Below are positions 1 through 19,107 of a DNA stretch of 32,000 nt, piece after piece. Source of the DNA: Nostoc punctiforme PCC 73102. GTDB taxonomy: Bacteria > Cyanobacteriota > Cyanobacteriia > Cyanobacteriales > Nostocaceae. Both the position numbers and the translations under genes were made by a program. Numbering within the stretch: position 1 is the stretch's first letter; each line of letters begins with the position of its first letter. Under the pieces are notes generated by a model. It was not told the origin of the DNA. It saw nothing but the letters and a program-made list of their open reading frames with translations, and did not search any database. Location of the stretch: assembly GCF_000020025.1 (NCBI RefSeq), contig NC_010630.1, positions 60,001 through 92,000 of the forward strand. Reading direction: 5' to 3'.

Positions 1-3000
1 AAGTAGAGAATAAAGAACCAGCGATGGTGATACCATTATTAGCCTTAAGGTCAATATTGCCCGCATTTCCTGCTAGATTAAGATCGCCGTTACCACTTGA
101 AGAATCCAAAGAAATAGGTGAGGAAGAGTCCAAAACGCCAGTGATGTTGATGCTGTTACCAGCTTCAAGGGTAATTGCACCACCATTTCCTGCAATATAA
201 TTAGATGATTCCGAGGTAGAATCCAAACCATCAGCAATGTTGATATTGTTGCCAGCTTTAAGGGTAATTGCACCCCCATTTCCTGCTGTGTGATTAGAGT
301 CTGAGGAAGAGTCGAACCTACCAGTAATGTTGATGTCGTTGGCAGCTTTTAGGCTAATATTGCCCCCATTTCCCGCTGTGCCATCATCCTCATCATAATT
401 GAAATAAAGCGAGTAAGAGTACATACTACCAGTGCTAATGCTGCCATTGGTGGCTTCAAGAGCGATCGCTCCTCCGTTGGTGTTATTAGAGTCAGGAGCT
501 TGTTGTCCATTACTGCTGATGAGTTGAGTATTCACATCCCCTGATGCTGCCAAAAGACTAACTATACCCCCAATCCCATTAAACGGTTGTAATACAACAT
601 CTCCACCTATCGTAATTCCAGGAGGTACATTGCCAGTACCGTAAGTAGGTATTGAGCCAGAATTAACACCCCCGTAAGCTAGATTCGACTGTCCCGAACG
701 TAGAATTAACGCTGAACGAGTACTAAGGGTTTCTGTATCTGCTCCTATAGGAAAAGAAGTGATATTATCTGGTCTAGTAATATTGATGTCACCTTGGAAG
801 CGAATATCACCTGTGGCTTCAACTAATAGCGAGGCTCCTACATAATTGGCAGCAACATCAACATTGCTATTAGCACTGATAATTGAGCCATATTTACTAA
901 TAAAAGTGGCTAACCCTCCGGAGCCGCTACGAATCAAAACACTATCATCACTCTGAAAGTTACCATTGTCAGCAATTATTTGATCGGCAAGAAAAGTTAG
1001 ATTACCGCCACTTATAGAACCGATCTTAATGTTGCCATTGGCTGTTATGAGGCTAATATCTCCTCCATTTCTGGCTACGCTATCAGTAGCAAGAGAGTTA
1101 GAGTCCAAATTACTGGCGGCAATGTTACCGTTAAAAGCAATAATATCAATTGCACCCCCATCTCCTGCTATCTCACCACTGGAAAATGAGTATAAACTGC
1201 TTGTAGAAACGTTATTTTTAGAGGTAGATAGAGTAATCGCACCACCCTGACCTGCACTACCAAAATTAGCTTGTGAATTAGAATTCAAATTGCCACTGAT
1301 ATTGATGCCATTGGTAGATTCAAGAGTAATTGCTCCACCATTTCTGGCATTGCCAAACTCAGAGAGTGAGTCCGAACTCAAATTTTGTGCTTCAATCTTA
1401 CCGTTGGTAGTGCTAATGGTAACTATGCCTCCATTGGCTGCATTACCAACATTGTTAAGAGAAGAGGAGGATAAATCATCTTCAATATTGATGTCATCGG
1501 CAGCTTTAAGGCTAATTGCACCACCATTTCCGCCATTGCCAGAGCTAGAAAAGGAAGAAGAATTTATATTATAAATATAAATACCTTCAGAGGATTGAAG
1601 AGTAATTGCACCACCATTTCCGGCATTGCCAGAGCTAGAAAAGGAAGAAGAATTTATATTATCAGTATAAATACTAGCTTCAGAGGATTGAAGAATAATT
1701 GCACCACCATTTCCGGCATTGCCAGATTCAGAGTATGAGTAAGAGAGCAAATCATCTGTTTGAATATTGCCATTGGCAGTTAAAGCGATCGCGCCCCCCT
1801 GACCTGCACTGGCAAAACGAGAATCCGAAGAAGAGTCTAAATCGCCAGTGGTAATGTCCTTAGCAGATTCAAGGCTGATGTTGCCCCCATTTGCCGTACT
1901 GCCAGATTCAGAGTATGAGTAAGACAATAAATCATCTGTTTGAATATTGCCATTGGCAGTTAAAGCGATCGCGCCCCCCTGACCTGCACTGGCAAAACGA
2001 GAATCCGAAGAAGAGTCTAAATCGCCAGTGGTAATGTCCTTAGCAGATTCAAGGCTGATGTTGCCCCCATTTGCCGTACTGCCAGATTCAGAGTATGAGT
2101 AAGACAATAAATCATCTGTTTTAATACTACCGTTAGCAGTTAAAGCGATCGCGCCACCATTGTTAGCCCCATTTCTAGTATCTAGAGTTTGAGTAACAAT
2201 TGCTCCACCACTTTTAATTTCAATTGCGCCACCATTAATAGTAATTGCTTCGGTAGTGACATCCCCTGTTGTCGTTGTTAAGCTAACTTTTCCTATGAAC
2301 TCATCATTGATTGGGTTTAAGGTAAGGTCTGTTTTTAAGTTTATTTCTTGATTGCCAATAAGTGTGATATTTCTACCTGCTTGTAGCTGTCCTTGCAAAT
2401 CAAGTTTGTCTGCTACTAGTGTCAGGTCTTGCTGGGGTGCTAAATTTCCGCTATTGGTAATAGTTGCCCCTGCCTGACTTGCTCCATACTGCAATCCAGG
2501 CGTAATATTTATCGTCAGTAATGGTGGTGCTTGAGGATTAGTAGCACTAAATTCACTCCCATCAGGAAACTTAAAACTCTTTGCGGTAGTTGCAGAAAAG
2601 GAGCCACCAATATCTAACCGAGCATTCTGACCAAAAACAATACCATTGGGATTAAGTAGGAATAAGTTTGCTGTACCGTTAGCGCGAATTAAGCCATCAA
2701 TATTAGAAATTGAATTACCCGTTACTCGTGTCAGAATGTTTTGAATATCTAGTGGATTATTGAAGAAAGCTGTACTGCCATTAGGAACAGAGAATTCCTC
2801 AAAACTGTGGAACAGATTAGCGCCTCTTGTGGTTCCACCCTGAATATTGATGGTATTACCCTCTAATCTGACATTGGAATTATTTGGGAGAGTCCCATCT
2901 GGAGTGATTTGGGCAACTGAGCTATTTGCATACAAGGCGATGACCGCACTTCCAATGGCAATTTCTAGACCTTGCAACCAGTCTAGACGTGCAGTTCTAA

Positions 3001-3007
3001 TAGGCAT
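1..3007 (-). CDS. Two-partner-secretion (TPS / filamentous-haemagglutinin N-terminal domain) repeat exoprotein; the first ~1002 codons are present and the 3' end lies beyond the left window edge
   Basis: Absent from the supplied ORF track (no stop in window). I read the minus-strand frame line by line. ATG is at 3007-3005, with GGAGA 5 nt upstream and an in-frame upstream TAG at 3016-3014. There is no stop in any codon down to position 2. The N-terminus is [137 protein letters not shown], i.e. a signal peptide plus the conserved TPS secretion domain. The rest is Gly/Asn/Ala-rich beta-helix-type repeats (..GNGGAI..). Confidence 0.93.
1721..2160. repeat. 180-bp (60-codon) near-identical tandem repeat, ~2.4 copies, inside the TPS exoprotein gene
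   Basis: Lines 1741-1920 and 1921-2100 are identical apart from a few bases at 1744-1750. A third partial copy starts at 2101. Shorter 78-81-bp repeats lie at 1500-1740. Confidence 0.9.
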
Positions 3008-3120
3008 TGCACTCTCCTATAAAAATAAATTATCTTGAAATGCTCAATTAAGAGTATGGGTGTCAGCACAATTAGCTGATACGTAAGTGAGCATACTAGC
3101 AGATTCGCACTCCTGAATCA

Positions 3121-3256
3121 AGTGAATAAAATCAACTCACTGCTACCAATTAAAAATTAGGAAGGTTAGCAAAGCTCAAAAAGTCTGATTTGTAACAGTG
3201 AATCAAATTAGCTCACTGCTACTAATTAAGAATCAGATTCGAGGCAAACAAGCTTA
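3121..3256 (+). promoter_or_regulatory. Leader repeat copy 1 (136 nt) with two AGTGA-N11-TCACT boxes, upstream of the 82-aa peptide gene and divergent from the TPS gene
   Basis: Aligns base for base (~90% by eye) with 3538-3673. Boxes: AGTGA 3121-3125 / TCACT 3137-3141 and AGTGA 3197-3201 / TCACT 3213-3217. Each is followed by GCTACNAATTAARAATYAG. A 9-bp stem (3183-3191 with 3230-3238) encloses box 2. Confidence 0.6.
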
Positions 3257-3297
3257 TTTTCAGTTCAAAATTACATTTGAAATTAAGGAGAAAAATA

Positions 3298-3546
3298 ATG
3301 TCTAACATCAATATAGGGGACGACTTGTTTAGAGCTATAAAAGGTATTGCTAGTAATATTGATCCATCTGGATTAGTGAAAGCAGCCGATGGTATTGCCA
3401 CTATTGCAAGTGGTGCACTCAAGCTAGCAACTGGCGAGGAAGATGCTTTGACAGACATTACAAATGGGGCTGGCAAAGTTATAACTGGAACAGGTACACT
3501 TTGTGGCTTTATCAAATCAAATAGCGATAGTGATGATAGTGAATAA
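3298..3546 (+). CDS. 82-aa Gly/Ala-rich small protein with an acidic tail (glycine-zipper-like GxxxG/A runs); function unknown
   Basis: The ORF-track start at 3277 is TTG. ATG 3298 has a strong AAGGAG (3285-3290) 7 nt upstream. Product: MSNINIGDDLFRAIKGIASNIDPSGLVKAADGIATIASGALKLATGEEDALTDITNGAGKVITGTGTLCGFIKSNSDSDDSE. I recognise no family. Confidence 0.65.
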   Translation: MSNINIGDDLFRAIKGIASNIDPSGLVKAADGIATIASGALKLATGEEDALTDITNGAGKVITGTGTLCGFIKSNSDSDDSE

Positions 3547-3673
3547 ACTCATGTCACTGCTACGAATTAAAAATTAGGAAGGTTAGCAAAGCTCAAAAGC
3601 TCTGATTCCTAACAGTGAATAAAATCAAATCACTGCTACTAATTAAGAATCAGAGTCAAGGCAAACAAGCTTA
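3538..3673 (+). promoter_or_regulatory. Leader repeat copy 2 (136 nt), upstream of the GTPase gene; its first 9 nt overlap the end of the 82-aa ORF
   Basis: Boxes: AGTGA 3538-3542 / TCACT 3554-3558 and AGTGA 3614-3618 / TCACT 3630-3634. A perfect 9-bp stem pairs 3600-3608 with 3647-3655. Confidence 0.6.
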
Positions 3674-3731
3674 CAGCATCTAAGTAAGCTTTACTACTCA
3701 TAATATCTTGTCAAATTTAGGATGGTAAATT

Positions 3732-4559
3732 ATGGTTAAAGAAATTGAACAATTGGAAAAAGCACTCCCGATTATTCAACGAGAATTGAAAAAACGTCCT
3801 CCTACCATTGGTTTAATTGGACTTTCAGGGGTTGGCAAATCCTCAACAATTAACAGACTTTTTAAAACTAATTTGGCAACTAGTGACACAGTTGCTTGTA
3901 CCAAAGAGTTTGAGCATAAGGATATTGAACTTAAGCTTACTAATAGCACAATCCAAAATTATCCAGTTCAATTAAGAGTAATTGATGCTCCAGGTTTAGG
4001 TGAAGATATTAACCTCGATCCTCAGTATCTGCAAATGTATAAAGAGAATCTTGGGAGGTGCGACGTTATAGTTTGGGTTTTGGCGGCTCGTAATAGAGCT
4101 GTAGCTCTAGACCAACAGTATTTGCAGGAACTTGAAGAATTCCACAATAAAATAGTATTTGCACTACACCAAATAGACCTTGTTGAACCCCTTAACTGGA
4201 ACATTGAATATAATATTCCATCCCCCAAGCAAAAGAAGAACATTGAAGTGATACTTCAGGATAAAAAAGAGAAGCTTTCTGCTGTAATTAAAAAGGATGT
4301 AAAAATGATTGAATATTCGTCAAGAACTGGTTTTGGGCTTGAACAATTGTTTGCAGCCATAATTAATTCTTGCCCTGAAGAAAGAACCTGGATATTTAAT
4401 GGACTGAAAGGCTTTTCTTACAAAGAATATACACCTAAGATTGTGCTTGATGAACTAGAGAAACGTAATAACGGGAAAGTCAGCGTTGGAAAGAGTTGGC
4501 TAGAAAATTGGCTAGAAATATTAGAGAATTTGCTAGAAATGTTAAATCCATTTAAGTGA
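3732..4559 (+). CDS. P-loop GTPase, TRAFAC class (MMR_HSR1 / AIG1-Toc34-like G domain)
   Basis: 275-aa ORF. G1 is GLSGVGKSSTINRLF, a candidate G2 Thr lies in ACTKEF, and G3 is DAPGLGE. The G4 position reads HQID rather than NKxD. A G5-like YSSRTG is present. The C-terminal ~60 aa are Trp/Leu-rich and helical. AGGA lies ~11 nt upstream of the ATG. Confidence 0.8.
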   Translation: MVKEIEQLEKALPIIQRELKKRPPTIGLIGLSGVGKSSTINRLFKTNLATSDTVACTKEFEHKDIELKLTNSTIQNYPVQLRVIDAPGLGEDINLDPQYLQMYKENLGRCDVIVWVLAARNRAVALDQQYLQELEEFHNKIVFALHQIDLVEPLNWNIEYNIPSPKQKKNIEVILQDKKEKLSAVIKKDVKMIEYSSRTGFGLEQLFAAIINSCPEERTWIFNGLKGFSYKEYTPKIVLDELEKRNNGKVSVGKSWLENWLEILENLLEMLNPFK

Positions 4560-4813
4560 TTCTTTTACTTGCTTCGATACTGTACAACATAAGTTATTCA
4601 CATCTTATTTCCATGTCTAATAAACACGATTCTGAATTTGAACGCGCCTTAAATGCTGCAAAAAATGCTAGCTATTCTGATAAGAAGGCTGCTGCTAAAT
4701 CACCTAATTCATTTCTTGACTTTTTGCGTAATTTAGGTTTGCGAACTCTAGCAAATAATTTGTCAGATTGGATTAGAGATAACTGGTCAACAATTGTTGA
4801 TTGGATACTATAA
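4556..4813 (+). CDS. Small protein (85 aa from GTG 4556, or 66 aa from ATG 4613) with a Trp-rich amphipathic C-terminus; function unknown
   Basis: GTG 4556 overlaps the GTPase stop (GTGA, 4556-4559), a typical coupling arrangement, and would add a hydrophobic N-terminus (ILLLASILYNISYSHLI). The alternative start gives MSNKHDSEFERALNAAK...LSDWIRDNWSTIVDWIL. No clear SD precedes either start. Confidence 0.45.
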   Translation: MILLLASILYNISYSHLISMSNKHDSEFERALNAAKNASYSDKKAAAKSPNSFLDFLRNLGLRTLANNLSDWIRDNWSTIVDWIL

Positions 4814-5105: not shown

Positions 5106-5129
5106 CCATACACATTTTTTAACCGGAGT

Positions 5130-5164
5130 GGTAGAAAGCTAAATTAGCTTTCTACCATTTTTTT
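5130..5164 (+). terminator. Rho-independent terminator closing the plus-strand cassette
   Basis: Perfect 11-bp stem ggtagaaagct (5130-5140) / agctttctacc (5146-5156), 5-nt loop, then a + 7 T (5158-5164). The minus-strand reading has no T tract. Confidence 0.7.
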
Positions 5165-5213: not shown

Positions 5214-7598
5214 TTATTCACGTAAGGAATGGGTCGCAGTGGAAAATTCCCGACGACTTTGAATAAATAACACAACAACACCACTTGTAACCACACCAAA
5301 GGCAGTGGGAATAAATGGCAACCATAGCCCTTGCTGGAAAAGAGCGATCGCACAAACTCCATATAAGACAAAAACCATTGCAACTATGACCCATCCCCGA
5401 TCAAAGAGCGATCGCACACACCAAACAATTAGACTTCCACCTACAGACCATGCACATATCCAAATCATATCGCCCCAGAAAGGCAACACCCAAAGAATTA
5501 GACGTTCATCTAAAACTGCACTTAAAACTTGGCTGACCATTTGCGCTTGGATCAATACCCCTGGTGTTTCCTGGTAAGGTTGCTGTGCAGCAGAGTAAGG
5601 AGTAGACCAAGTATCGCTGATGGTGTTAGCTGTCACTCCCACGATCACTACCTTATCTTTAAGTAATTTCGGGTCAAATTTATTAGTCAATATATCTTCC
5701 AGGGAAACTCTCTGATAATCAGTATCGCGGTAGTTGACAAGTAATTGCATTCCGCCTAACTCAACTCCTTGTTGATAGCCACCACTGCGCCCAGGTTTTA
5801 AGCGTTTTAAGACTTTAGAGCCAAATTGTACATAATCTTTCTGAAATTCAGGTTGAATATTTTCCGCAAATAAGTAACGCGCAGCTAATTGTAACGACAG
5901 CGAATAAGGCGTTTTACAAGTTGAAGGAGGCTCTTGTGCCATCATCAAGATTTGGCGACGGACGATCCCATCTGGATCTTGAACTCCATCCGTAAAACCT
6001 TGACGTTCTACAGGTACGTCTTTTGGAGCTTTCACACCTTGGGGGTCATATTTGCGATCGCGGCTTTTGCAGACAACAACAACATTATCTTTACCAAGTT
6101 CAGTCGGAAGTTCGATTGGATTTAATTTATTTAGAGGGTCGGCAAAGTCTCTGTAAATATCTAATCCAATAACTCGCGGTTCATACTTTTGTAATTTATT
6201 CAGCAATGTTGCTAAAGTACTATCCGAAACTGATTTCCAACCTAGAGTTTTTTCAGGTCGAGATTGAATATCTTTTTCAGTGATTTCCACAATTATCAAT
6301 CTTGGCTCTGGGTCTTCCTTGGGTCGCAGCCGTAGCATTTGGTCAAAAGTTTGTAATTCGATTTTCTCAAACACTCCCAAGTATCTTAAACCCACTGTTG
6401 AAACAGCTACAATAAAAATACTAATTAGTACAGTCAAAAGTTGAGATTTTGGGTTAGCAATTTTACCTTTAGTCGCAATACCCATAAATTTAGTATCGCC
6501 AAAATTGCCTAGCAGTGCTAGCCACGTAGTCGGCACAGTTGTAGGATTTTGATAAATTACTGGTAACCAGCTAGCACAAGGAAATTCATTTTCCAATCCC
6601 TGAAGTCTTTCTCTTGCTTCTCGCACAGCCAAGTAAAATGGTTTGCTACCTGCAAAGGCGATAAGAAAGTGTTTTAAGAATTCCTGCGCTATTAAATCTG
6701 GCACTGCTTCCCGCATGACAATCGTTTGGGGAATATTTAAATCAGCTAAATTTCGTGCTAACCCAATTCCATCACAAGAATTGAAAATTACCAGTTGTAA
6801 ACCACGCCTAATTGCATTTTTCAGTGCATTTTTTAACTGTGGAATAGTTAAATTTTCTGTTTGATTGATGCCAATCTCTCCTATCTCTCCATTAGCAAGA
6901 CTAGTGCTATGTCCCGCAAAAAATAGGATATCCCAATCCTGTTTCCAAAGATATTCATCAAGTGTTTTACGTGATGGTTCGACAAGAAACGTAGTTTGGG
7001 CATCTGTTAAAGCTTCTAGCAAAGAGCTATCTTTATCAATATCAATACCGACTCTATTACCTAGAATCGCCAAAATTTTTACCTTACCTGCTGAAGATTT
7101 TAGTAATACATGATGAGATGCATACTCATGATTGCTTAAAGCTAATTCAGCTTTAGGATAATCTTCAAAAAAATGCCACAGATGCCAAGGCAAGCGATGT
7201 AGTAGAACTATATTCGTTTCAATAATAACTCTAATTTCATCATCCCGATTGAGTTGAGTACGCAACTGCCGCTCAATGTTCTGAAACGATTCAAATTGTA
7301 ACCAAGCATTGATATTTGCTTGTAGCTGTTGACACACTTCATCGAAGTCATTGATAGAAATATTGGTTATGTCTTGGGAATGCACTTTTATACGTTGATT
7401 GCGACCCAGACTTTGATGTACTGCTGTATAGAGTAACTGCCATCTACGGTAGAGTTCGCTTAATTCTGGTGCTGCTGGCAAACTCCCTGTTAATTTCATG
7501 GGGAAAAATTGATTATGATGCCAAAGTTGAGCTGTGACAACAAGAAATCCTTTATTTAGATCTCCTCCCAGAAAACTGAAGACGACTAGCTTACTCAT
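5214..7598 (-). CDS. CHAT (caspase-like protease) - TM - CHASE2 - 3xTM membrane protein
   Basis: 794-aa ORF. The N-terminal ~390 aa carry the caspase/CHAT dyad context: ILFFAGHS (His) and LQLVIFNSCDGIG (Cys). Next come a hydrophobic helix (LLTVLISIFIVAVSTVGL), a ~290-aa CHASE2-like segment (RLIIVEITEKDI..., VVIVGVTANTISDTWSTPYS) and three C-terminal hydrophobic helices. The ORF ends 16 aa after the last helix. Confidence 0.8.
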   Translation of the reverse strand: MSKLVVFSFLGGDLNKGFLVVTAQLWHHNQFFPMKLTGSLPAAPELSELYRRWQLLYTAVHQSLGRNQRIKVHSQDITNISINDFDEVCQQLQANINAWLQFESFQNIERQLRTQLNRDDEIRVIIETNIVLLHRLPWHLWHFFEDYPKAELALSNHEYASHHVLLKSSAGKVKILAILGNRVGIDIDKDSSLLEALTDAQTTFLVEPSRKTLDEYLWKQDWDILFFAGHSTSLANGEIGEIGINQTENLTIPQLKNALKNAIRRGLQLVIFNSCDGIGLARNLADLNIPQTIVMREAVPDLIAQEFLKHFLIAFAGSKPFYLAVREARERLQGLENEFPCASWLPVIYQNPTTVPTTWLALLGNFGDTKFMGIATKGKIANPKSQLLTVLISIFIVAVSTVGLRYLGVFEKIELQTFDQMLRLRPKEDPEPRLIIVEITEKDIQSRPEKTLGWKSVSDSTLATLLNKLQKYEPRVIGLDIYRDFADPLNKLNPIELPTELGKDNVVVVCKSRDRKYDPQGVKAPKDVPVERQGFTDGVQDPDGIVRRQILMMAQEPPSTCKTPYSLSLQLAARYLFAENIQPEFQKDYVQFGSKVLKRLKPGRSGGYQQGVELGGMQLLVNYRDTDYQRVSLEDILTNKFDPKLLKDKVVIVGVTANTISDTWSTPYSAAQQPYQETPGVLIQAQMVSQVLSAVLDERLILWVLPFWGDMIWICAWSVGGSLIVWCVRSLFDRGWVIVAMVFVLYGVCAIALFQQGLWLPFIPTAFGVVTSGVVVLFIQSRREFSTATHSLRE

Positions 7599-7705: not shown

Positions 7706-8953
7706 CTAAATCACGAAATTTTCTGTTATTTGGCAACTATCAAGAGTCACTTGGATGCTAAAACGTTCCCCCACTTCCCCATCAAATAGTTTCAATTGCA
7801 CGTACATATCTTGAACTCTTGCTTGTACTTCTTGAAGTATTTCCCCTTGCTCTGAAAGTAAAACTAGCTTGATATTAGCGGGTAGGTAAGGTTGATTACA
7901 AGCTGGATGTAGTTGCACACGAATACTAACTTGTTGGTTAACCTCTGGCATTAAGGCAACTAATAAGATAACTTTCTGTGCCTCTATTTGCATTCCCAAG
8001 TCAATCAATTTGGCGCGTTTGATAGCGGCAGCATTTAACCCAGAAGAACTACGAAAATTAAAAGCTAGGCTACTGGTATTTGGCTCAAAAAAAGTCTCTA
8101 TAGCTTGCCAAGAAGCATCGTAAATCTGAAGAAGCCAACGACTGAGATTCACTTGCACTTGGGAAAATTGCGTAGGCACAGCCCGTCGTAGACATCGCTG
8201 ATGCTGTTCATATAAGCATTGCCGCCATTGTTCATTATCCAGTAGTGCTGCCCAGGTTGTAAAAGGTACTGCTAGCCTCACAAATGTGACTGAAGAATCG
8301 CTTAACAGTTGCTGCATATTTTCTGCTTGAGCAGTCGATAATTCTGGTAGTGGAGCGATCGCAGCTTTCATCTCCTCTTTTATACAAAATTGGTAGGTTA
8401 TCCAAAAAGCATTAAGGTCTTTAATTAAGTACCGTGCATCTATACAATAAGTTCTATCTACTTGGTCATAGTGTGCCAGTGATTTAAGTTCCTGATGGGT
8501 TATATAACCCCAAATTCTTACCCACTCGCCATCTGGTGTGACTTGTACTGCTAAATAATAGTCTGCTACCCAACTGGGAATGTCTACCCATTCTTGAGGG
8601 ACTTCTAACTCGCTATCATCAATTGCCTCGCTGGGAATTAAAACAACTCGCTTTTCCTCTAACAGAATTGCTGTGCCATTGACAAATTCCCAAAAAGCAG
8701 GGATACCGGGTGAACTGTACCAAACACTTGCTTTTGAAACAGATTCAGTTTTTATCCAATTCAAAAACGCATAGAGGCAAATTTGATTTGTGTAAGCACA
8801 CCAGCGACTGCTAGGTGTAGCGTAAACTTGACTTTCTTGCCAAGCACTTTTCTGTAGTGATGGTGATATCTCTAACAATATTTCTTGCGGTTCTGTAAAA
8901 TCTAAAGTCATTTTTGCTACCTCATCTTTCATGATATCAACTTGATTCGCCAT
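7706..8953 (-). CDS. DUF1822-like protein (cyanobacterial family of unknown function)
   Basis: 415-aa ORF. Its ATG (8953) overlaps the end of the sigma-factor gene by 17 nt. Size, position next to a sigma factor, and the N-terminal pattern (..YATPSSRWCAYTNQICLYAFLNWIK..) match my recollection of DUF1822 proteins. This needs HMM confirmation. Confidence 0.55.
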   Translation of the reverse strand: MANQVDIMKDEVAKMTLDFTEPQEILLEISPSLQKSAWQESQVYATPSSRWCAYTNQICLYAFLNWIKTESVSKASVWYSSPGIPAFWEFVNGTAILLEEKRVVLIPSEAIDDSELEVPQEWVDIPSWVADYYLAVQVTPDGEWVRIWGYITHQELKSLAHYDQVDRTYCIDARYLIKDLNAFWITYQFCIKEEMKAAIAPLPELSTAQAENMQQLLSDSSVTFVRLAVPFTTWAALLDNEQWRQCLYEQHQRCLRRAVPTQFSQVQVNLSRWLLQIYDASWQAIETFFEPNTSSLAFNFRSSSGLNAAAIKRAKLIDLGMQIEAQKVILLVALMPEVNQQVSIRVQLHPACNQPYLPANIKLVLLSEQGEILQEVQARVQDMYVQLKLFDGEVGERFSIQVTLDSCQITENFVI

Positions 8954-10127
8954 ACTTAACTCTCAACCATTCTTCCAAAGCAGTACTCATATCTTTAACT
9001 TGGTTGGAATTTACAGAAATATTAAAGGTCTCTTGAGTCCATTGGATCAATGCTGTCAGCAAGGATTCTCTAGCTTTGAATAGCCTGCGAGAAACAGTAG
9101 GCTGACTCATTTGTAGGTGTTGTACAATCTGTGGCTGAGTTAGCCCCTGTTGGTAGTAAAGTTTAAGTATTTCCTTGGTTTTAGTCTCAAAAGTTTGTAA
9201 AGTTTTTAACAAGATAGCTTGAATCTGAGATTGTTGATTTTGTTGGTGTTGGGCATCCTCTTCGGCTATCATCTCAGCGATTAATGAATCAGAGGATGGA
9301 TCTGGCAAATCAAGAGTTGCTATGGAGTCATCTTCTGATATAGCTAAATTTAGAGAACTAACAGGTGGATAAAGATAAGCACGCACGTAAATAGCTGCTT
9401 GAGTTAACCACTGTTCAATTTTCTCTCTCGTGCATTGTGGAGTAGGTTGAGTTAATTGATTTTGTCGTTCGCGGTTGTAGAGGTTGGCAATAGCTTCCCA
9501 AATTTGGCGTTCTGGTTCTGGTAGTGCCTTTATGCCTCCTGGTTGGTTTTGCACATACAGTTCTTTGAAACAATTCCAGGCAAGCCGATATTGGGCAATG
9601 ATAGCAGGTGATAATCCAGCTTTATCCAGAGCTTCTAAGAACTGCTTTTTGCTTACTTTGCGTAACAATCCCCAATTTGTGCAAATATCAGCTTCCTTAC
9701 GTTGGCGTAAAATATCTTTTAGCCGACTGGGAAGTGCCATAGTAGCATAAGCTTTTAAACTAGAACATTTTTCTGGATTAAAGCTTTTGAGAACCGTTTC
9801 AATTTCAGCACTCGCCATTTGAAAGTAATCTGCCAAGCTGTATTGGCTATTGGTAAATTTAGCAATTGTTTTTTTAGCACTCCAGTAACTTGGTTCTTGT
9901 AAATAAGCAGACAAATGCATTCTGGCAAGGTGATTAGATTGCTTTCGCCAATGCTTGTGCCAATATAGTGCCCAAAAGTTTTCTGAGTTAGGGACTAACG
10001 GTGAATACTCCAAGCAATTTTGAATGCTTCGATGTAGTTTGATATCAATCAACCATTTGCTGAATCTGTCTCTTTCCAAATGAACAAAGGTTGAGAACAT
10101 CTCGGTAATTTCTTGACGAGGACGCAT
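8937..10127 (-). CDS. Sigma-70-family RNA polymerase sigma factor (divergent, long N-terminal part)
   Basis: The ORF-track start at 10133 is TTG; the first ATG is at 10127. A clear region-4 HTH is present: ILKLYYQQGLTQPQIVQHLQMSQPTVSRRLFKARESLL. An acidic linker (SEDDSIATLDLPDPSSDSLIAEMIAEEDAQ) precedes it. Confidence 0.8.
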   Translation of the reverse strand: MRPRQEITEMFSTFVHLERDRFSKWLIDIKLHRSIQNCLEYSPLVPNSENFWALYWHKHWRKQSNHLARMHLSAYLQEPSYWSAKKTIAKFTNSQYSLADYFQMASAEIETVLKSFNPEKCSSLKAYATMALPSRLKDILRQRKEADICTNWGLLRKVSKKQFLEALDKAGLSPAIIAQYRLAWNCFKELYVQNQPGGIKALPEPERQIWEAIANLYNRERQNQLTQPTPQCTREKIEQWLTQAAIYVRAYLYPPVSSLNLAISEDDSIATLDLPDPSSDSLIAEMIAEEDAQHQQNQQSQIQAILLKTLQTFETKTKEILKLYYQQGLTQPQIVQHLQMSQPTVSRRLFKARESLLTALIQWTQETFNISVNSNQVKDMSTALEEWLRVKYGESS

Positions 10128-10526
10128 AAGCAATACAAAAGACCCTTATCTTTTATCCGACATAACCTACGATAAACACCTTTTCTCCCTTAACACTACT
10201 ACAATTTTTGTATAAAATTATACTGTATAATTTCAGGGGTGAAACTTGTGCAGACTCAATGAAATGCACAAAATATAAAACGATAGAATCAGGGGTTGGC
10301 AACTTCTCGGGGAATAGCGAAGAGTTCTTTAATCCCAGATAAAATCTGGGACTACGTTATCTGTTGGATTCCCTTTCATGCTCAATCCAATTGTATTACT
10401 CTATTACATTCGACTAAACTTTCCAGCGTTCGCTGGAAAGTTTAGTATGCGCTCCGCCAGTGACGACGGATTTGGATGTAAGGCAAGTTCAAAAACGACA
10501 AATACCAACCGTTCCACATCGGGATA

Positions 10527-10794: not shown

Positions 10795-11198
10795 TGCACT
10801 GTCGGAGATGATGGTAGTGTCCGCTTGTGGGATTTGCAAGGTCAGCAGTTATCTAAATTCACTGCCCATCAAGGTTCGGTTAGGAGTCTCAGTTTAAGCC
10901 CAAATGGTCAACAACTGGCTACTGCTGGAGAAGATCGTACTATGCGTTTATGGAATTTACAGGGTGAGCGGTTGGCAGAATTTTCAGCAAATTCTCGGAA
11001 CGTTATTTTTGGTCCAGATGGTCAACGATTAGCTACCGTAGGAGTTGATGGTAATGCTAAGTTAAGTTATGGCAAATTGAAACGTTTGAGGAATTGTTGA
11101 AGCAGGGTTGCGGTTGGGCGCGTGATTATCTGAAAAATAATTCTAATGTTAATGAGAGCGATCGCACTTTGTGTAATGATATCGGCACTCAAAAGTGA
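10795..11198 (+). pseudogene. 3' fragment of a WD40-repeat protein gene, 5'-truncated and frameshifted
   Basis: WD repeats are present (GDDGSVRLWDLQG, SPNGQQLATAGEDRTMRLWNLQG, GPDGQRLATVGVDGNAKL). A tandem 5-bp duplication aagtt|aagtt (11059-11068) shifts the frame. The conserved tail WQIETFEELLKQGCGWARDYLKNNSNVNESDRTLCNDIGTQK* continues in the +1 frame to 11198. Confidence 0.75.
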
Positions 11199-11259
11199 AC
11201 TATTCGCGCTACCGAAGGCTGCTTTCAACTTCGCACAGTCAAACACAACTGTTCAAGAA

Positions 11260-11388
11260 ATCATATTATGTCCGGTTAAACACTTGTCATTGCGAACGAA
11301 GTGAAGCAATCCCATAGACTTTGTGATTGCTTCACTTCGTTCCACTGCGTTGCACTCGCAATGACATAATTTGCCGGACATGATATCA
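11260..11388. mobile_element. Nested-hairpin MITE (~125 bp)
   Basis: Three concentric inverted repeats: atgtccgg (11268-11275) / ccggacat (11374-11381); tgtcattgcga (11285-11295) / tcgcaatgaca (11357-11367); cgaagtgaagcaatc (11297-11311) / gattgcttcacttcg (11325-11339). Confidence 0.7.
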
Positions 11389-11392
11389 AAAC

Positions 11393-11640
11393 CCTTGCAG
11401 GGCATACTAACAAGGTTTGGGCGCGAGTTTCTCACCCAATGGTAAAACAGTGGCTTCTGCATCCGGCGATGGGACAGTAATTTTGGGGAATTTTGATTTA
11501 GATAATTTATTAATTAATATGTGTGATTTAATACTAAAAATTCCAGTAAAAATTCTGAAGTTAATGTGAAAGATCGGAAATTGTGCAATCTAATTGGGAA
11601 TAAGCGTTCACCGATTTTTTGCACTAGTCAGCGACTCTCA
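11393..11640 (+). pseudogene. Second WD40-protein 3' fragment, multiply frameshifted
   Basis: It begins right after the MITE. GHTNKVW is in one frame, then SFSPNGKTVASASGDGTVILGNFDLDNLL, then in another frame KNSSKNSEVNVKDRKLCNLIGNK. This is the same C-terminal tail type as the fragment at 10795-11198. Confidence 0.5.
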
Positions 11641-13672: not shown

Positions 13673-14641
13673 ATGTCCGGTCGCATCCTGAAAGTCAATA
13701 ATAATACTTTGCCTTCCGTGCTGGATTGGTGGACTCAGCCGGATGTGTTGGCGATGTTGTTGTCGGAGAAGCGTAGTGAGTCCACGCGGAAAGCTTATGA
13801 TCGGGACATTAAAGATTTTTTTACCAAGATGTTTGCGGTGGAATCGACGGCGGAATGGGTGGTGCGATTTTTGGCACTGCCGGGGGCGCAAGCACTCTTG
13901 TGGGTGGTCAAGTACAAAGCCAAGATGATTGAGCAGAGGTTATCGGAGGCCACGGTTAACCGGCGGTTGTCAGCTCTACGGGCGCTGGTGCATAAGGGTA
14001 GAGTGTTGGGGGTTTGTGGTTACACCTTGGAGGATATTAAGGGTGAGACTGTCATTAAATACCGAGATACCAGTGGTGTTACTCCCCAGGAATTTAAGCA
14101 GATACTTTTGACTTGCGATCCAACAACGGCGAAGGGGGTCAGGGATTATGCTTTGCTGCGCTTGCTTTGGGATAATGCGCTACGACGGGGGGAGATTGCG
14201 AAGTTAAAGATGGGGGATTTTGACCGTCAAAATAGCAAACTGCTGATTTTGGGTAAGGGAAGGGGTAGTCAACGGGAGACGATTGATTTAACTCCTAAGA
14301 CTAGGGATGCAATTTGTTATTGGTTGGCGTTTCGGGGGTTGGCATCAACTAAGGATGCGTTGTTTGTGGCGTTGGATCTGAATACGCCGGGGCATCCTTT
14401 GACGGATACGGGGATTGCCAAGATGGTAAGAACACGGGCGAAAAAGGCGAATATTAGTAAGCCGTTAAGTCCGCACCGCATTCGGCACAGTTCGATTACG
14501 GCGGCGTTGGATGCGGGGCAGAGTGTGCGGGAGGTGCAGAAACTCAGTCGGCACACCAAGTTGGAGACGTTAATGATTTATGACGATAATCGACAGCAGC
14601 ACCAGTTGAAGGTGAGTAGCGTGCTGGCGGATTTGGTTTGA
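13673..14641 (+). CDS. Tyrosine recombinase / phage-type integrase
   Basis: 322-aa ORF with the R..HxxR..(H)Y catalytic pattern: ALRRGEIAKL, SPHRIRHSSITAALDAG, LSRHTKLETLMIYD. It is markedly GC-richer than the flanks (35 of 60 G+C counted in line 13861-13920). Confidence 0.9.
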   Translation: MSGRILKVNNNTLPSVLDWWTQPDVLAMLLSEKRSESTRKAYDRDIKDFFTKMFAVESTAEWVVRFLALPGAQALLWVVKYKAKMIEQRLSEATVNRRLSALRALVHKGRVLGVCGYTLEDIKGETVIKYRDTSGVTPQEFKQILLTCDPTTAKGVRDYALLRLLWDNALRRGEIAKLKMGDFDRQNSKLLILGKGRGSQRETIDLTPKTRDAICYWLAFRGLASTKDALFVALDLNTPGHPLTDTGIAKMVRTRAKKANISKPLSPHRIRHSSITAALDAGQSVREVQKLSRHTKLETLMIYDDNRQQHQLKVSSVLADLV

Positions 14642-16286: not shown

Positions 16287-16697
16287 TTATTCCTCGTCTT
16301 CATCTGTCTCTAAATCATCGTCAATTTTTACCCCGAATGGTAGGGTATCAAAACCTAAGTTTTCTAAAGTTAAAATGGCTGACTCGACTGAGGAATTGTT
16401 GATGGTTTCTTGATTCACTAGGGATGTAAGTAATTCACAAACTCCCTTGTATTGATTGGCATTGTAATCAATCCATCTGTTTTCAAAGAAGAGTGCATCA
16501 TGCAGCGCCATTACCACTTCTGTATAGGGGTCGAAAGGTAATTTATCGCGCAACTTCCGCATGGTACGCAGTAGATTGTCTGCATAGACAGCTGCTATTG
16601 GTTCTCCAGTGTATTGTTGGAGTTTTTGTAAATCTACTAAGAGAGTTTTGGTAATTTCTACTCCTGAAACTTCTAAGACGGTCTGTTCAATATTCAT
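16287..16697 (-). CDS. 136-aa protein with an acidic tail, translationally coupled to the PIN-like gene (candidate antitoxin/partner)
   Basis: Its stop lies 6 nt before the PIN-like ATG. GAGGAA inside its last codons serves as the SD for the downstream gene. The C-terminus is IDDDLETDEDEE. Confidence 0.5.
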   Translation of the reverse strand: MNIEQTVLEVSGVEITKTLLVDLQKLQQYTGEPIAAVYADNLLRTMRKLRDKLPFDPYTEVVMALHDALFFENRWIDYNANQYKGVCELLTSLVNQETINNSSVESAILTLENLGFDTLPFGVKIDDDLETDEDEE

Positions 16698-16852
16698 TGT
16701 TTTTATTTGACAATAAGTTCAGTTTATTCGGAGCTAATTGACATTTTATGGGGTAGACTTATGGGATGAACCCGCAGTTCAGATCCGCTCTGTACCAACC
16801 CTAGCGGCAATACCTAAGTCTACAGGTTATTCTATTTTCTAGTCTATTAATT

Positions 16853-17200
16853 TTATTCCTCAAGATACTCTACCATCGCCGTCAGGTCTGCCATAGCCCG
16901 ATCAAATCGATTTAACAAAGCTTGGGCTACTTCTGGATCAGCGTTGACGGTTGCTAGTTTTTCCCGTACACGACGGTCAAGGGCTTCTAGCCACAATGAC
17001 AAGCCTGTATGCCGAATTGCTGATAATAACCCCATGTTGGTGAGGACAGCCAAATGAAAACCAAGTTGGTCTTGTCCGCCATAGCCTAGATATCCGTTAC
17101 TCAGTTCCAGCTTTTCTGGGGTAAATTCTAAATACTGTTCAAAGGTAATACCAGCTTTTTCTAGCTGGGGTTGGGGCAATGAAGGGTGAGATTGAGTCAT
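16853..17200 (-). CDS. Hypothetical protein (115 aa), divergent from parA
   Basis: Open frame, GC-richer than the flanks (31 of 60 in line 16921-16980). I recognise no family. Confidence 0.4.
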   Translation of the reverse strand: MTQSHPSLPQPQLEKAGITFEQYLEFTPEKLELSNGYLGYGGQDQLGFHLAVLTNMGLLSAIRHTGLSLWLEALDRRVREKLATVNADPEVAQALLNRFDRAMADLTAMVEYLEE

Positions 17201-17349
17201 AACACAATTCTTTTAAGTAATATTTGTGTGGAATTCGAGGGAATGCTCCTGCTCAATGAGTTTTTCCTAGTAGTAGGACAACACTACCCACGATGGTTAA
17301 TCATACTCTTTGTTCCTGGCATGGCCTGTGTCAACTCTATGGCGTACTA

Positions 17350-17377
17350 TTGACATACAAACTCTGTAAGTTAGTAT
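17350..17377 (+). promoter_or_regulatory. Sigma-70-type promoter for the partition operon
   Basis: TTGACA (17350-17355), a 16-nt spacer, then TAGTAT (17372-17377). The spacer is occupied by the left arm of the inverted repeat AACTCTGTAAGTT. Confidence 0.5.
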
Positions 17378-17446
17378 CTTTGTTACTTACAAACTTACAG
17401 AGTTACGAACAAACAGAGTTACGAACAAACAGAGTTACAAAGTTAC
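17357..17446 (+). promoter_or_regulatory. Iteron / operator-centromere-like cluster upstream of parA
   Basis: 13-bp inverted repeat aactctgtaagtt (17360-17372) / aacttacagagtt (17392-17404) with a 19-nt spacer. It is followed by 16-bp direct repeats cagagttacgaacaaa at 17398, 17414 and (partial) 17430. Confidence 0.6.
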
Positions 17447-17457
17447 GGAGTCAGGAT

Positions 17458-18087
17458 GTGCATATTATTGCTGTTGTGAACGGAAAGGGAGGGTCAGCTA
17501 AGACGACAACTAGCGTCAATTTAGCAGCCATCCTTGCTGAGAAATCAAAAGTATTGTTGGTAGATGCAGATCCTCAAGGTTCTGCTACTTGGTGGGCAGA
17601 GCGCAATGAGCGAGATTTTGAATTATCTAAGGAAACAGATACGAATGAGTTGTTAAAACTTAAAAAAGTAAAAGGGTTTGATTTTATTATTGTGGACACT
17701 CCTCCGGCACTCCACTTTGAGGCACTGCAAATTACTATCGATGCAGCTGATTTTGTTTTGCTGCCATCTCCCCCAGCCCCAATGGATCTTCAGGCACTGA
17801 TTGAAACTGTACAGGCATCGATCATGCCAGCAAATGTTAAGTTTCGAGTTTTATTAACTCGTGTTGATCCTCGTAGTTTGGGTAAGGCACTTGATGCTCA
17901 ACAAGCACTCATGCAAGGAGGTATTCCTGCATTTAACGGTTTTGTCAGGGCTTATGCTGTTCATGAACAAGCTGTTCTTGATGGCATACCAATTACTCAA
18001 GTTCGCGGAAAAATAGCTCGTGAAGCTGAAGGGGATTATCGGCGTGTTGCTGATGAGCTTTTGAGAGAGGTAAATACTCATGGCTAA
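17458..18087 (+). CDS. parA: ParA-family partition ATPase
   Basis: Deviant Walker A VNGKGGSAKTT, then LLVDADPQGS and the Walker B-like FIIVDTPP. The ORF-track start (17293) reads through the promoter and iterons. GTG 17458, with GGAG 7 nt upstream, gives a normal 209-aa ParA. Confidence 0.85.
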   Translation: MHIIAVVNGKGGSAKTTTSVNLAAILAEKSKVLLVDADPQGSATWWAERNERDFELSKETDTNELLKLKKVKGFDFIIVDTPPALHFEALQITIDAADFVLLPSPPAPMDLQALIETVQASIMPANVKFRVLLTRVDPRSLGKALDAQQALMQGGIPAFNGFVRAYAVHEQAVLDGIPITQVRGKIAREAEGDYRRVADELLREVNTHG

Positions 18088-18973: not shown

Positions 18974-19011
18974 GTTCGAGAGTTTGGAAGTTTGTAACTT
19001 ACAGAGTTTGT
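18964..19011. promoter_or_regulatory. Second copy of the par inverted repeat, spanning the parB-like stop codon
   Basis: aaatctgtaagtt (18964-18976) / aacttacagagtt (18996-19008), 12 of 13 complementary. The 19-nt spacer is the same length as in the copy at 17360-17404. Confidence 0.6.
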
Positions 19012-19107
19012 TATTAATTTATCTTGCCTGATGTGTGATCATCGCTGTCGATTCTCACTCCATTTGATGAGTTTGATTTCGACAAATAAAAAGTTAATCA
19101 ACAATTT

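What the first reader, a model, noticed from the sequence alone, without database searches (positions are those of the whole stretch)
3298..4813. Three-gene cassette (Gly-zipper-like peptide / atypical GTPase / Trp-rich peptide) wedged in opposite orientation between the TPS gene and the CHAT-CHASE2 gene
Seen: a plus-strand unit interrupts an otherwise minus-strand block (sigma, DUF1822-like, CHAT-CHASE2, TPS). It has its own strong SD, overlapping stop/start (GTGA at 4556-4559) and its own terminator (5130-5164). The GTPase has G1 GLSGVGKSSTINRLF (closest in my memory to AIG1/Toc34-type and HSR1-type P-loops), and its G4 position reads HQID instead of NKxD. The first peptide has repeated small-xxx-small spacing (GIATIASGALKLATG, GAGKVITGTGTLCG) and an SDSDDSE tail. 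The last peptide ends in WIRDNWSTIVDWIL. Inference: an NTPase switch flanked by two small, possibly membrane-active peptides resembles toxin/immunity or conflict-system layouts. It could also be an accessory module of the surrounding secretion/signalling cluster. I cannot assign any of the three proteins to a characterised system.
Basis: partly seen in the sequence, partly recalled or inferred. Interest (0 to 1): 0.72.

Follow-up and report, generated by a model that had tools for sequence, protein, structure and literature searches.

The report
Mobile GTPase pair in Nostoc cargo slot
The three plus-strand genes are real, but they are two separate units: a small secreted-peptide precursor that belongs to the surrounding Nostoc gene cluster, and an uncharacterised GTPase plus a ~65-residue helical partner that travel together on plasmids, phage-like DNA and genomic islands in at least nine bacterial phyla.

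Summary
The window comes from a Nostoc punctiforme PCC 73102 plasmid. All three ORFs, the flanking genes, the P-loop, the HQID motif and the terminator are present as described.

The trio is not one conserved cassette.

1. The GTPase (3732-4559) and the downstream small protein are a conserved two-gene module. The small protein most likely starts at ATG 4613, not at the overlapping GTG 4556. The partner lies next to the GTPase, on the same strand, in 28 of 44 loci from cyanobacteria to actinomycetes. It sits either downstream or upstream. No other neighbour is conserved. Contexts include plasmids, a phage-like contig and STAND/TIR/restriction-modification neighbourhoods. The GTPase is septin/IRG-like and distantly related to E. 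coli YkfA. The family G4 motif is NQxD.

2. ORF1 occurs only in close Nostoc relatives. It shares its 5' UTR, its SD and its first five codons (MSNIN) with a family of proteins that carry a double-glycine-type leader.

3. Each unit sits behind its own copy of a tandem 72-77-nt repeat leader. This leader marks a variable cargo slot between the TPS gene and the CHAT-CHASE2 gene in related clusters.

Neither small protein has a predicted membrane segment. The function is untested. The best guess is a GTPase switch plus adaptor acting in a conflict or mobile-element role.

The parts
2..3007 (-). 5' part of a large TPS-domain (filamentous-haemagglutinin-type) exoprotein gene. It is transcribed divergently from the cassette and runs off the window.
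   Evidence: Pfam TPS E 3.3e-55; open frame.
3121..3256 (+). Leader copy 1: 1.8 tandem units of a 72-77-nt repeat. Each unit holds two inverted repeats, CAGTGA-N11-TCACTG and GAATYAGRAGG-N12-17-CYTCTGATT.
   Evidence: The same element forms arrays of 2-5 units in N. calcicola, in Nostoc UHCC 0926 and in five metagenome contigs.
3285..3290 (+). Shine-Dalgarno AAGGAG for ORF1.
   Evidence: Read directly. It is conserved, together with the start codon context, in the MSNIN gene family.
3298..3546 (+). ORF1 (82 aa), a putative double-glycine-type leader peptide precursor. The leader is about residues 1-39 and ends IASG. The core is about 43 aa, Gly/Thr-rich with one Cys and an acidic tail.
   Evidence: It shares its 5' UTR and MSNIN start with leader+beta/gamma-crystallin proteins. 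The N. calcicola orthologue has IAGG at the aligned site. Homologues occur only in close Nostoc relatives.
3538..3673 (+). Leader copy 2, 90% identical to copy 1. It overlaps the ORF1 stop and precedes the GTPase.
3732..4559 (+). GTPase of a septin/IRG-like, YkfA-related family. G1 is GLSGVGKSS (residues 30-38), switch I is ACTKEF, G3 is DAPGLGE, G4 is HQID (family NQxD) and G5 is YSS. It has a C-terminal helical extension with an amphipathic tail.
   Evidence: Pfam MMR_HSR1 2e-14, Septin 1e-9, AIG1 2e-6. 514 homologue clusters. Alignment. AF2 model pLDDT 89. PDB profile hits to septins and IRGB10.
4613..4813 (+). Partner protein (66 aa from ATG 4613; annotated as 85 aa from GTG 4556 = Npun_CF056). 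It is all-helical, with an invariant Phe34 and Trp58.
   Evidence: Family alignments. The partner is adjacent to the GTPase in 28 of 44 loci. 148 representative clusters. AF2 helices.
5125..5161 (+). Hairpin plus T-run, an intrinsic-terminator-like site for the plus-strand unit, 53 nt beyond the CHAT-CHASE2 stop.
   Evidence: (I5).
5214..7598 (-). CHAT (caspase-like)-CHASE2 sensor protein. It forms the right border of the cargo slot.
   Evidence: Pfam. 71-80% identical homologues border the slot in L058, L073 and L074.
7706..10133 (-). DUF1822 protein (7706-8953) and a sigma-70-family protein (8937-10133). They are candidate regulators of the cluster.
   Evidence: Pfam. The CHAT-CHASE2 + sigma + DUF1822 association is described as a predicted conflict system in PMC8195603.

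Best explanation
The region holds two units, both placed in a variable cargo slot of a Nostocales cluster. The cluster runs TPS exoprotein | slot | CHAT-CHASE2, DUF1822, sigma. Each unit sits behind its own copy of a cluster-specific tandem-repeat leader.

Unit A is ORF1. It is a small precursor of the 'MSNIN...' family, whose N-terminal ~38 residues look like a double-glycine leader. It is probably exported and cleaved by a peptidase-domain ABC transporter encoded elsewhere.

Unit B is a self-contained, horizontally mobile two-gene module. It consists of a septin/IRG-like GTPase that lacks the catalytic Gln (DAPGLGE), so it probably needs dimerisation or a partner for hydrolysis, and a ~65-aa helical protein. 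Inferred mechanism: the small protein binds the GTPase as its adaptor or regulator. In other genomes the same domain carries variable C-terminal modules. The pair works as a nucleotide-dependent switch in a conflict role, either defence or competition between mobile elements. In N. punctiforme the pair has been captured as cargo and is probably co-regulated with the cluster through the repeat leader.

Shown: the gene anatomy, the family memberships, the pair conservation, the leader duplication and the slot variability. Inferred: physical interaction, the conflict function, export of ORF1, and regulation by the leader.
For: Pair:
- An HMM of the partner finds it in 28 of 44 GTPase loci among 2,945 small ORFs. 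It is always adjacent and on the same strand, with one exception. It lies downstream in 18 loci and upstream in 10.
- No other neighbour family is shared across the loci.
- In 10 of 10 Pfam-annotated contigs, an ORF follows the GTPase directly.
- Contexts: ParA/ParB/resolvase (L054), between terminase and portal (L053), Fic/RhuM (L052), STAND/NB-ARC/TIR neighbours (L001, L051, L080, L082), HsdM (L082), and the N. punctiforme plasmid itself.
- The partner domain is fused to variable modules: two TM helices, a beta-rich domain, a Cys-rich domain, and HTH.
- GTPase affinities: septin and IRGB10 by profile, and YkfA and small Col-plasmid GTPases at 30% identity.

ORF1:
- The DNA from the last repeat unit through the SD to ATGTCTAACATCAA is shared with five paralogues in L072 and one in L062.
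- In those proteins the beta/gamma-crystallin domain starts right after ...ISGG.
- IAGG in N. calcicola aligns to the same position.

Slot:
- The same order, TPS(-) | repeats | + strand cargo | CHAT-CHASE2(-), recurs with different cargo in UHCC 0926, L072, L073 and L062.
- L074 has almost no cargo in the slot.
Against: - There is no experimental evidence for any of the three proteins, and no paper was found.
- PADLOC gives only weak hits: LeoA 0.0025 and mad8 0.0047.
- No homologue was found in 50,697 phage genomes.
- Enrichment near defence genes was not tested against a background. One context (Pyrinomonadaceae) looks like housekeeping.
- 16 of 44 loci have no HMM-detectable partner.
- The ORF1 leader is degenerate: SG instead of GG in the window and in P0122, and no L(-12)S(-11). 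No peptidase-ABC transporter is in the window. No leader HMM matches it.
- Whether the repeat acts as DNA or RNA is unresolved. 92% of cells are paired, but covariation is no better than in shuffles.
Confidence: 0.55

Rival explanations
1. ORF1, the GTPase and ORF3 form one three-component toxin/immunity-type cassette, in which two membrane-active peptides are controlled by the GTPase.
For: - All three genes are on the same strand with no predicted terminator between them.
- The arrangement is kept in N. calcicola.
- One unrelated locus (L023, Rhodospirillales) also has a second small protein. It has a partner-like N-terminus and a true glycine-zipper hydrophobic segment (KD19 1.85), and it lies 660 nt upstream of the GTPase.
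- ORF1's DDLFRAIK resembles the N-terminal helix of some partners, for example L051 DDLLRAVK.
Against: - ORF1 is absent from 42 of 44 GTPase loci.
- hhalign of ORF1 against the partner profile gives probability 0.4%, and the N-terminal-helix HMM does not find ORF1 at E<=5.
- ORF1 shares its UTR and start with a different family.
- Neither small protein in the window has a TM-like segment.
Confidence: 0.12
2. The pair is an addiction (toxin-antitoxin-like) module that stabilises plasmids and islands. The small protein neutralises a growth-arresting GTPase, or the reverse.
For: - It is a two-gene, tightly linked module with one small gene, found on plasmids next to ParAB and resolvase.
- The gene order flips between lineages.
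- Related GTPases are the main cargo of 4.8-5.9-kb Col-type plasmids.
Against: - No known TA family matches.
- Fusions of the partner domain to TM, beta-rich and HTH modules fit an adaptor better than a labile antitoxin.
- The small Col plasmids lack the partner.
Confidence: 0.15
3. The pair is a cellular membrane or cytoskeleton factor (septin/IRG-like membrane remodelling) with no role in conflict. Here it is recruited to help secretion by the TPS cluster.
For: - The sequence is similar to septins, IRGs, EHD and Toc34.
- The GTPase has a C-terminal amphipathic tail, (S/G)(W/F)LxR(I/F)L-like, in many members.
- The pair is located inside a secretion/signalling cluster.
Against: - The pair is next to TPS/CHAT genes only in two close Nostoc strains.
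- It has a sporadic distribution and variable contexts, including a phage-like contig.
- Other versions of the cluster lack it.
Confidence: 0.1
4. The GTPase is a housekeeping ribosome-assembly GTPase (Era/EngB/Der type), and the small ORFs are noise.
For: The best Pfam hit is MMR_HSR1, and public records name it '50S ribosome-binding GTPase'.
Against: - All equivalog models score far below their cut-offs.
- The gene is plasmid-borne.
- There is no KH or other RNA-binding domain.
- ORF3 is conserved across phyla, with 148 representative clusters.
- The name is only the Pfam family title.
Confidence: 0.03

Closest known systems
YkfA / YfjP / YeeP 'GTPase family protein' of E. coli CP4-type islands, and the GTPases of small Col-type plasmids
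   Same: - About 30% identity over about 75% of the G domain (E 9e-18 to 5e-21).
- Similar size (280-295 aa).
- Carried on mobile DNA.
- Function unknown; no functional study was found.
   Different: - No partner-family gene lies next to them.
- The G1 sequence differs (GKTGAGKSS).
- They form a different clade: the window's family is more than 45% identical within itself across phyla.
Septin / IRG / GIMAP(AIG1) / Toc34 group of TRAFAC GTPases
   Same: - These are the best solved-structure matches by profile: septin-9 at 9e-9 for G1-G3, and IRGB10 at 3e-8 over residues 10-227.
- Pfam Septin and AIG1 pass their cut-offs.
- The catalytic Gln position is hydrophobic.
- G4 is non-canonical.
   Different: - There is no septin unique element, no IRG helical domains and no coiled coil. 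Fold search gives only generic G-domain matches with TM about 0.5.
- Filament or dimer formation is untested.
DO-GTPase / GAP1 'GTPase-centric' conflict systems (Kaur et al. 2020, PMC7159879)
   Same: Both are mobile neighbourhoods built around a TRAFAC GTPase, a co-evolving partner gene and variable modules.
   Different: Those GTPases have a Walker-B Glu, are often paired, carry Zn ribbons and have a three-domain GAP1 partner. They are nearly absent from cyanobacteria. Here there is a single GTPase with DxxG and a 65-aa partner.
EACC2-caspase(CHAT)-CHASE2 + sigma + DUF1822 systems (Kaur et al. 2021, PMC8195603)
   Same: The flanking minus-strand genes match this description.
   Different: The passages I retrieved from that paper by term search do not mention a TPS-bordered cargo slot, the tandem-repeat leader or a GTPase pair. 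I did not read the whole paper.
Double-glycine leader precursors of cyanobacteria (Wang et al. 2011, PMC3140520)
   Same: ORF1 and its MSNIN relatives have a ~38-aa N-terminal extension ending I-x-G-G, with an acidic residue at -9. Mature domains start right after GG.
   Different: - The consensus M(R/K)ELx3E(I/L)x2(I/V)xG(G/A) is only partly met.
- The window copy has SG.
- No C39 transporter is nearby.
- No NHLP/N11P model matches.
Aureocin A53-type leaderless bacteriocins
   Same: ORF3's Trp-rich C-terminal 29 residues give a weak hit (E 0.017, 14.7 bits against a cut-off of 27).
   Different: The hit is below the cut-off. ORF3 has a long hydrophilic N-terminal helix, is not cationic (net +1) and is always paired with a GTPase. 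This is rejected as membership.

Membership tests
P-loop GTPase (TRAFAC class) | G1 GxxxxGK[ST], a switch-I Thr, and G3 DxxG. | tested here: met
   GLSGVGKSS, ACTKEF and DAPGLGE are invariant or nearly so in 30-120 homologues. Pfam MMR_HSR1 scores 53.9 bits against a cut-off of 21.9.
P-loop GTPase (TRAFAC class) | G4 [NT]KxD, which confers guanine specificity. | tested here: inconclusive
   The window has HQID. The family has NQxD in 88 of 120, NQVE in 16 and SQAD in 7. Lys is always replaced by Gln, and Asp is not invariant. Nucleotide preference cannot be read from the sequence.
Housekeeping Era/EngB/Der/Obg equivalogs | A score above the NCBIfam equivalog cut-off, plus the family-specific extra domains. 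| tested here: not met
   Era 43.8 against 237, Der 45 against 306.7, YsxC 29.2 against 124. There is no KH or OB domain. The gene is plasmid-borne and has variable synteny.
Septin / IRG / AIG1 clade | Sequence affinity of the G domain. | tested here: met
   Pfam Septin 38.1 against 26.2 and AIG1 27.7 against 27. The PDB profile search is topped by septins and IRGB10.
Septin / IRG / AIG1 clade | Nucleotide-dependent dimerisation or filament formation, and clade-specific extensions. | not testable with these tools
GTPase + partner two-gene module (defined here) | A partner-family gene adjacent to the GTPase on the same strand. | tested here: met
   The window partner scores E 4.7e-26 against the family HMM. 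28 of 44 loci are positive, with the partner downstream or upstream.
Known anti-phage defence systems (PADLOC-DB v2) | A significant match to a system component. | tested here: not met
   Only LeoA at 0.0025 and mad8 at 0.0047 for the GTPase, and nothing credible for the small proteins.
Double-glycine leader precursor (ORF1) | An N-terminal leader ending in GG/GA/GS, with hydrophobic residues at -4 and -7 and an acidic residue near -8. | tested here: inconclusive
   N. calcicola: D(-9) I(-7) I(-4) A G G. The window and P0122 have S at -2. The register is the same as in the L072/L062 ISGG proteins, whose crystallin domain begins after GG.
Double-glycine leader precursor (ORF1) | A cognate C39-peptidase ABC transporter. 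| tested here: not met
   None is in the 32-kb window. Related clusters on other Nostoc plasmids do carry peptidase-ABC + HlyD genes. The rest of the genome was not examined.
Glycine-zipper / membrane-active peptide (ORF1, ORF3) | A hydrophobic segment able to span or insert into a membrane. | tested here: not met
   The maximum KD19 is 1.15 for ORF1 and 0.24 for ORF3. A true Gly-zipper paralogue in L023 scores 1.85. TIGR03057 is at its threshold (18.7 against 18.6).
Rfam RNA families (repeat leader) | A match to any curated covariance model. | tested here: not met
   No hit at gathering score in the whole window, and none at E<=1 in 3020-3760.

The most novel reading that the evidence does not exclude
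The Nostocales TPS | CHAT-CHASE2 | DUF1822 | sigma cluster may be a sensor-regulated launcher with an exchangeable cargo slot. Genes of very different kinds are plugged in behind a constant tandem 72-77-nt repeat leader, sometimes with one array per gene. The cargo seen includes double-glycine-leader crystallin proteins, a lysozyme-YkuD protein with an S8 protease, an AfsA-type signal-molecule operon, and here a GTPase + adaptor pair. The leader would be the element through which the cluster's own sigma factor or sensor switches the cargo on. Under this reading the GTPase + 65-aa adaptor pair is a new, phylum-spanning conflict switch that this launcher has captured.
Probability: 0.35. Interest if true: 0.78.

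Novelty: new variant of a known kind. Interest (0 to 1): 0.6.

Why it matters
- A GTPase family related to eukaryotic immunity and cytoskeleton GTPases (septin, IRG, GIMAP) is locked to a tiny helical partner in at least nine phyla and moves on plasmids and phage-like DNA. Neither protein has a studied member or, for the partner, a Pfam family. It is a compact, testable two-gene system.
- It could show how such GTPases are switched in bacteria.
- It could also give a function to the long-unexplained YkfA/YfjP/YeeP group.
- Separately, the repeat leader and the variable slot give a handle on what the widespread cyanobacterial CHAT-CHASE2/DUF1822/sigma clusters control.

Tried and rejected
- ORF1 as a paralogue of the partner: hhalign probability 0.4% and no hit with an HMM of the N-terminal helix. 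Kept only as a weak lead.
- ORF3 as an aureocin-A53-type bacteriocin: below the cut-off and the wrong architecture.
- Known defence systems, phage protein families and phage genomes gave nothing useful. PADLOC hits were weak. One PHROG of unknown function matched at 1.5e-8. tblastn against phages found no match.
- Conserved large neighbours of the GTPase: none found by all-against-all BLAST of 419 neighbour ORFs.
- RNA structure of the repeat: folding z-scores are only -2.3 and -2.4. Both inverted repeats are kept (92% paired), but covariation does not exceed shuffles. One-sided changes are G-U compatible on the + strand, which is only suggestive.
- Rfam gave no hit.
- A sigma-70 promoter scan found no more sites than in shuffles.
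- A Pfam census of about 215 neighbour ORFs was dropped because it exceeded the size limit and high-GC spurious ORFs would add noise.
- Literature searches for Npun_CF05x, paraseptin, YkfA/YfjP/YeeP and GTPase defence found no functional data.
Full report
**Origin and anatomy**

The GTPase is 100% identical to a Nostoc punctiforme protein. The downstream ORF is Npun_CF056, on a 123-kb plasmid of PCC 73102. The window also carries an integrase, a ParA and an NRPS.

On the + strand lie three ORFs:
- ORF1, 3298-3546, 82 aa.
- A GTPase, 3732-4559, 275 aa.
- A small ORF ending at 4813.

They interrupt a minus-strand block. That block holds a TPS-domain exoprotein (E 3e-55), a CHAT+CHASE2 protein, a DUF1822 protein (E 2e-107) and a sigma-70 region-4 protein. 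A 17-bp hairpin with a T-run at 5125-5161 faces the + strand. ORF1 has AAGGAG 7 nt upstream of its ATG.

A 136-nt direct repeat (3121-3256 and 3538-3673, 90% identical) precedes both ORF1 and the GTPase. Each copy is 1.8 units of a 72-77-nt tandem repeat. The core TCACTGCTACNAATTAARAAT occurs four times in the window and never in 100 shuffles.

**The GTPase**

- Pfam places it in MMR_HSR1 (2e-14), with Septin (1e-9) and AIG1 (2e-6) also above their cut-offs.
- All NCBIfam housekeeping equivalogs score far below their cut-offs, for example Era 43.8 against 237.
- 514 homologue clusters were found.
- 43 loci in reference genomes span Cyanobacteriota, Acidobacteriota, Actinomycetota, Bacteroidota, Chloroflexota, Planctomycetota, Gemmatimonadota (Longimicrobium) and Alphaproteobacteria, at 41-96% identity. 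An Opitutaceae (Verrucomicrobiota) member is among the protein hits.
- G1, the switch-I Thr and G3 (DAPGLGE in 117 of 120) are conserved.
- G4 is NQxD/E with an invariant Gln. The window's HQID is one of only two His variants.
- The position of the Ras catalytic Gln is Leu. From general knowledge of such GTPases, this suggests that hydrolysis depends on dimerisation or a partner. This is inference.
- The AF2 model is confident (pLDDT 89, pTM 0.83). It shows a G domain with an N-terminal helix and four C-terminal helices.
- A profile search of PDB sequences is led by septins (G1-G3 region) and IRGB10/Irgb6 (whole G domain). Foldseek gives only generic small-GTPase matches.
- Distant relatives at about 30% identity are E. 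coli YkfA and the GTPases that are the main cargo of 4.8-5.9-kb Col plasmids. No functional study of these was found.

**The partner (ORF3)**

- Small ORFs directly after the GTPase in Pelatocladus, Fischerella, a Pyrinomonadaceae MAG and many others align with ORF3. Phe34 and Trp58 are invariant.
- An HMM of 13 of these sequences was searched against all 2,945 ORFs of 40-160 aa in the 44 loci. It hit 28 loci with a partner next to the GTPase on the same strand: downstream in 18 and upstream in 10, the latter mostly Hyphomicrobiaceae and an Anaerolineales MAG.
- The only non-adjacent hit is a paralogue in L023.
- No other neighbour family is shared.
- A profile search of 1.84 billion representatives finds 148 clusters. 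Most are 60-90 aa. None has a precomputed Pfam domain in the earlier hit list.
- A few carry C-terminal additions after the domain: two TM helices, beta-rich domains of about 125 aa, and a Cys-rich tail. One has an N-terminal HTH. The phage-like contig L053 has a 226-aa form.
- The AF2 model is all-helical, with confidence high only for residues 31-66. Hydropathy excludes a TM segment, with a maximum KD19 of 0.24.
- Homologues start at the Met equivalent to ATG 4613, 42-215 nt after the GTPase stop. The GTGA overlap at 4556 is therefore probably not the real start.

**Contexts of the pair**

| Context | Locus |
|---|---|
| ParA/ParB, YhcG, resolvase | L054 |
| Between terminase and portal | L053 |
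| Fic, RhuM, AAA_14 | L052 |
| nSTAND1/NB-ARC | Pelatocladus L001; L082, with HsdM and GT4-conflict |
| HTH-TIR-NB-ARC | L080 |
| Caspase and MalT-like | L051 |
| Resolvase or integrase nearby | L081, L083 |
| Ordinary-looking neighbourhood | Pyrinomonadaceae |

This pattern, together with the sporadic distribution across phyla, points to a mobile accessory module. A conflict role is plausible but was not tested against a background.

**ORF1**

- It has homologues only in N. calcicola (96%) and one metagenome contig (86%). It is absent from the other GTPase loci.
- A metagenome scan for the repeat core found further arrays.
- Downstream of these arrays, L072 has five paralogous genes and L062 has one. 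All begin MSNINN... and carry ...LSHEAAATISGG, followed at once by a beta/gamma-crystallin domain (Pfam 1e-12 and 3e-10).
- The DNA from the last repeat unit (GGCAAACAAGCTTAC, TTCAGTTCAAA) through the SD to ATGTCTAACATCAA is shared with ORF1.
- ORF1's ATIASG, which is ATIAGG in N. calcicola, aligns with their ATISGG.
- The register (acidic at -9, Ile at -4, G at -1) resembles the cyanobacterial double-glycine motif cited in PMC3140520. It is degenerate, however, and no leader model or nearby C39 transporter supports it.
- ORF1 has no TM-like segment, with a maximum KD19 of 1.15.

**The slot and the leader**

The order TPS(-) | repeat array | + strand genes | CHAT-CHASE2(-), DUF1822(-), sigma(-) recurs with different cargo:

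| Locus | Cargo in the slot |
|---|---|
| Nostoc UHCC 0926 plasmid pn1 | Two acidic proteins, an S8 peptidase, a lysozyme-PG-binding-YkuD protein |
| L073 | AfsA, hydrolase, ICMT, epimerase, PPDK-like, UbiA |
| L072 | Five crystallin precursors; four have a repeat array directly upstream (L072_b does not) |
| L062 | One crystallin precursor |
| L074 | About 1 kb with a single unit remnant |

More distant versions of the cluster on other Nostoc plasmids have neither the pair nor this slot order.

N. calcicola has one more repeat unit than the window. In 25 aligned units the two inverted repeats are 92% paired, but covariation is not above shuffles. The one-sided changes are G-U compatible on the + strand. 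There is no Rfam match. Whether the units are promoter or operator sites or a structured 5' UTR is open.

After the shared AAGCTTAC, the GTPase's own 65-nt upstream sequence begins. This marks where the pair was joined to a leader copy.

**Synthesis**

The finding is real but should be re-parsed. The conserved, portable entity is the GTPase + partner pair. ORF1 belongs to the host cluster's own cargo family. Both are wired to the cluster through duplicated leaders.

The flanking CHAT-CHASE2 + sigma + DUF1822 set has been proposed as a conflict system (PMC8195603). The DO-GTPase/GAP1 systems of PMC7159879 are a different family.

My preferred mechanism is inferred, not shown: a GTPase switch with a small adaptor, used in conflict and captured here as regulated cargo. 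The architecture claims I hold at about 0.85 and the functional claim at about 0.4.

Noticed in passing
window 3121-3256 and 3538-3673; L007 5304-5493; L050 3998-4289; L062 2201-2561; L072 4522-4814, 5903-6050, 6684-6760, 7213-7361; L073 10877-11239; L075 884-1244; L063 5298-5445: A Nostocales-specific tandem repeat of 72-77 nt in arrays of 1.8-5 units. Each unit has two conserved inverted repeats. It always lies at the 5' end of plus-strand cargo genes. In at least six loci it lies divergent from a TPS gene. It matches no Rfam family.
   Followed up: partly
L058 (Nostoc UHCC 0926 pn1) 16300-24700; L073; L072; L074 2992-4069: The space between the TPS gene and the CHAT-CHASE2 gene is a variable slot. 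Its contents include lysozyme-YkuD with an S8 protease, an AfsA/UbiA/ICMT biosynthetic operon, five double-glycine-leader crystallin genes, or almost nothing.
   Followed up: partly
L023 4565-4855: A Rhodospirillales GTPase locus has a second small protein. Its N-terminal 25 residues copy the local partner (DDYTDAKLGKLVKEAA), but its C-terminal half is a true glycine-zipper hydrophobic segment (KD19 1.85). This suggests that the N-terminal helix is a constant docking part.
   Followed up: partly
P0150, P0152, P0161, P0178, P0180, P0205: The partner domain is fused to different extra modules: two TM helices, unknown beta-rich domains, Cys-rich repeats, and an N-terminal Cro/C1 HTH. None has a Pfam assignment apart from the HTH and a weak BrkB hit.
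   Followed up: partly
L055 (Salmonella pN16-1393-c), L056 (E. coli pE1246_2): Col-type plasmids of 4.8-5.9 kb in Enterobacteriaceae carry a related GTPase (31% identity) as essentially their only cargo. In pE1246_2 it sits with a Cys-rich 144-aa protein and an EcsC-family protein. No function is known.
   Followed up: no
window 4501-4542: A 21-nt tandem duplication inside the 3' end of the GTPase gene (LENWLEI/LENLLEM) lengthens the C-terminal amphipathic helix. It is present in N. punctiforme and N. calcicola but not in Pelatocladus.
   Followed up: no
window 3666-3694: AAGCTTAC...AAGCTTTAC, a short direct repeat, flanks the point where leader copy 2 ends and the GTPase-specific upstream sequence begins. 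It may be a recombination footprint.
   Followed up: no
window 10825-11569: Short ORFs with WD40-like repeats (for example SPNGQQLATAGEDRTMRLWNLQG) are broken into pieces. They look like remnants of a degraded WD-repeat gene next to the sigma gene.
   Followed up: no
window 13673-14641, 17293-18087, 22034-31993: The window carries a tyrosine integrase, a ParA-type ATPase and a 3,319-aa NRPS (C-A-T-TE at its end). This fits a plasmid origin.
   Followed up: partly
L053 8001-9611: A member of the pair lies between the terminase large subunit and portal genes of a phage-like contig. No homologue was found in the 50,697 GenBank phage genomes.
   Followed up: no
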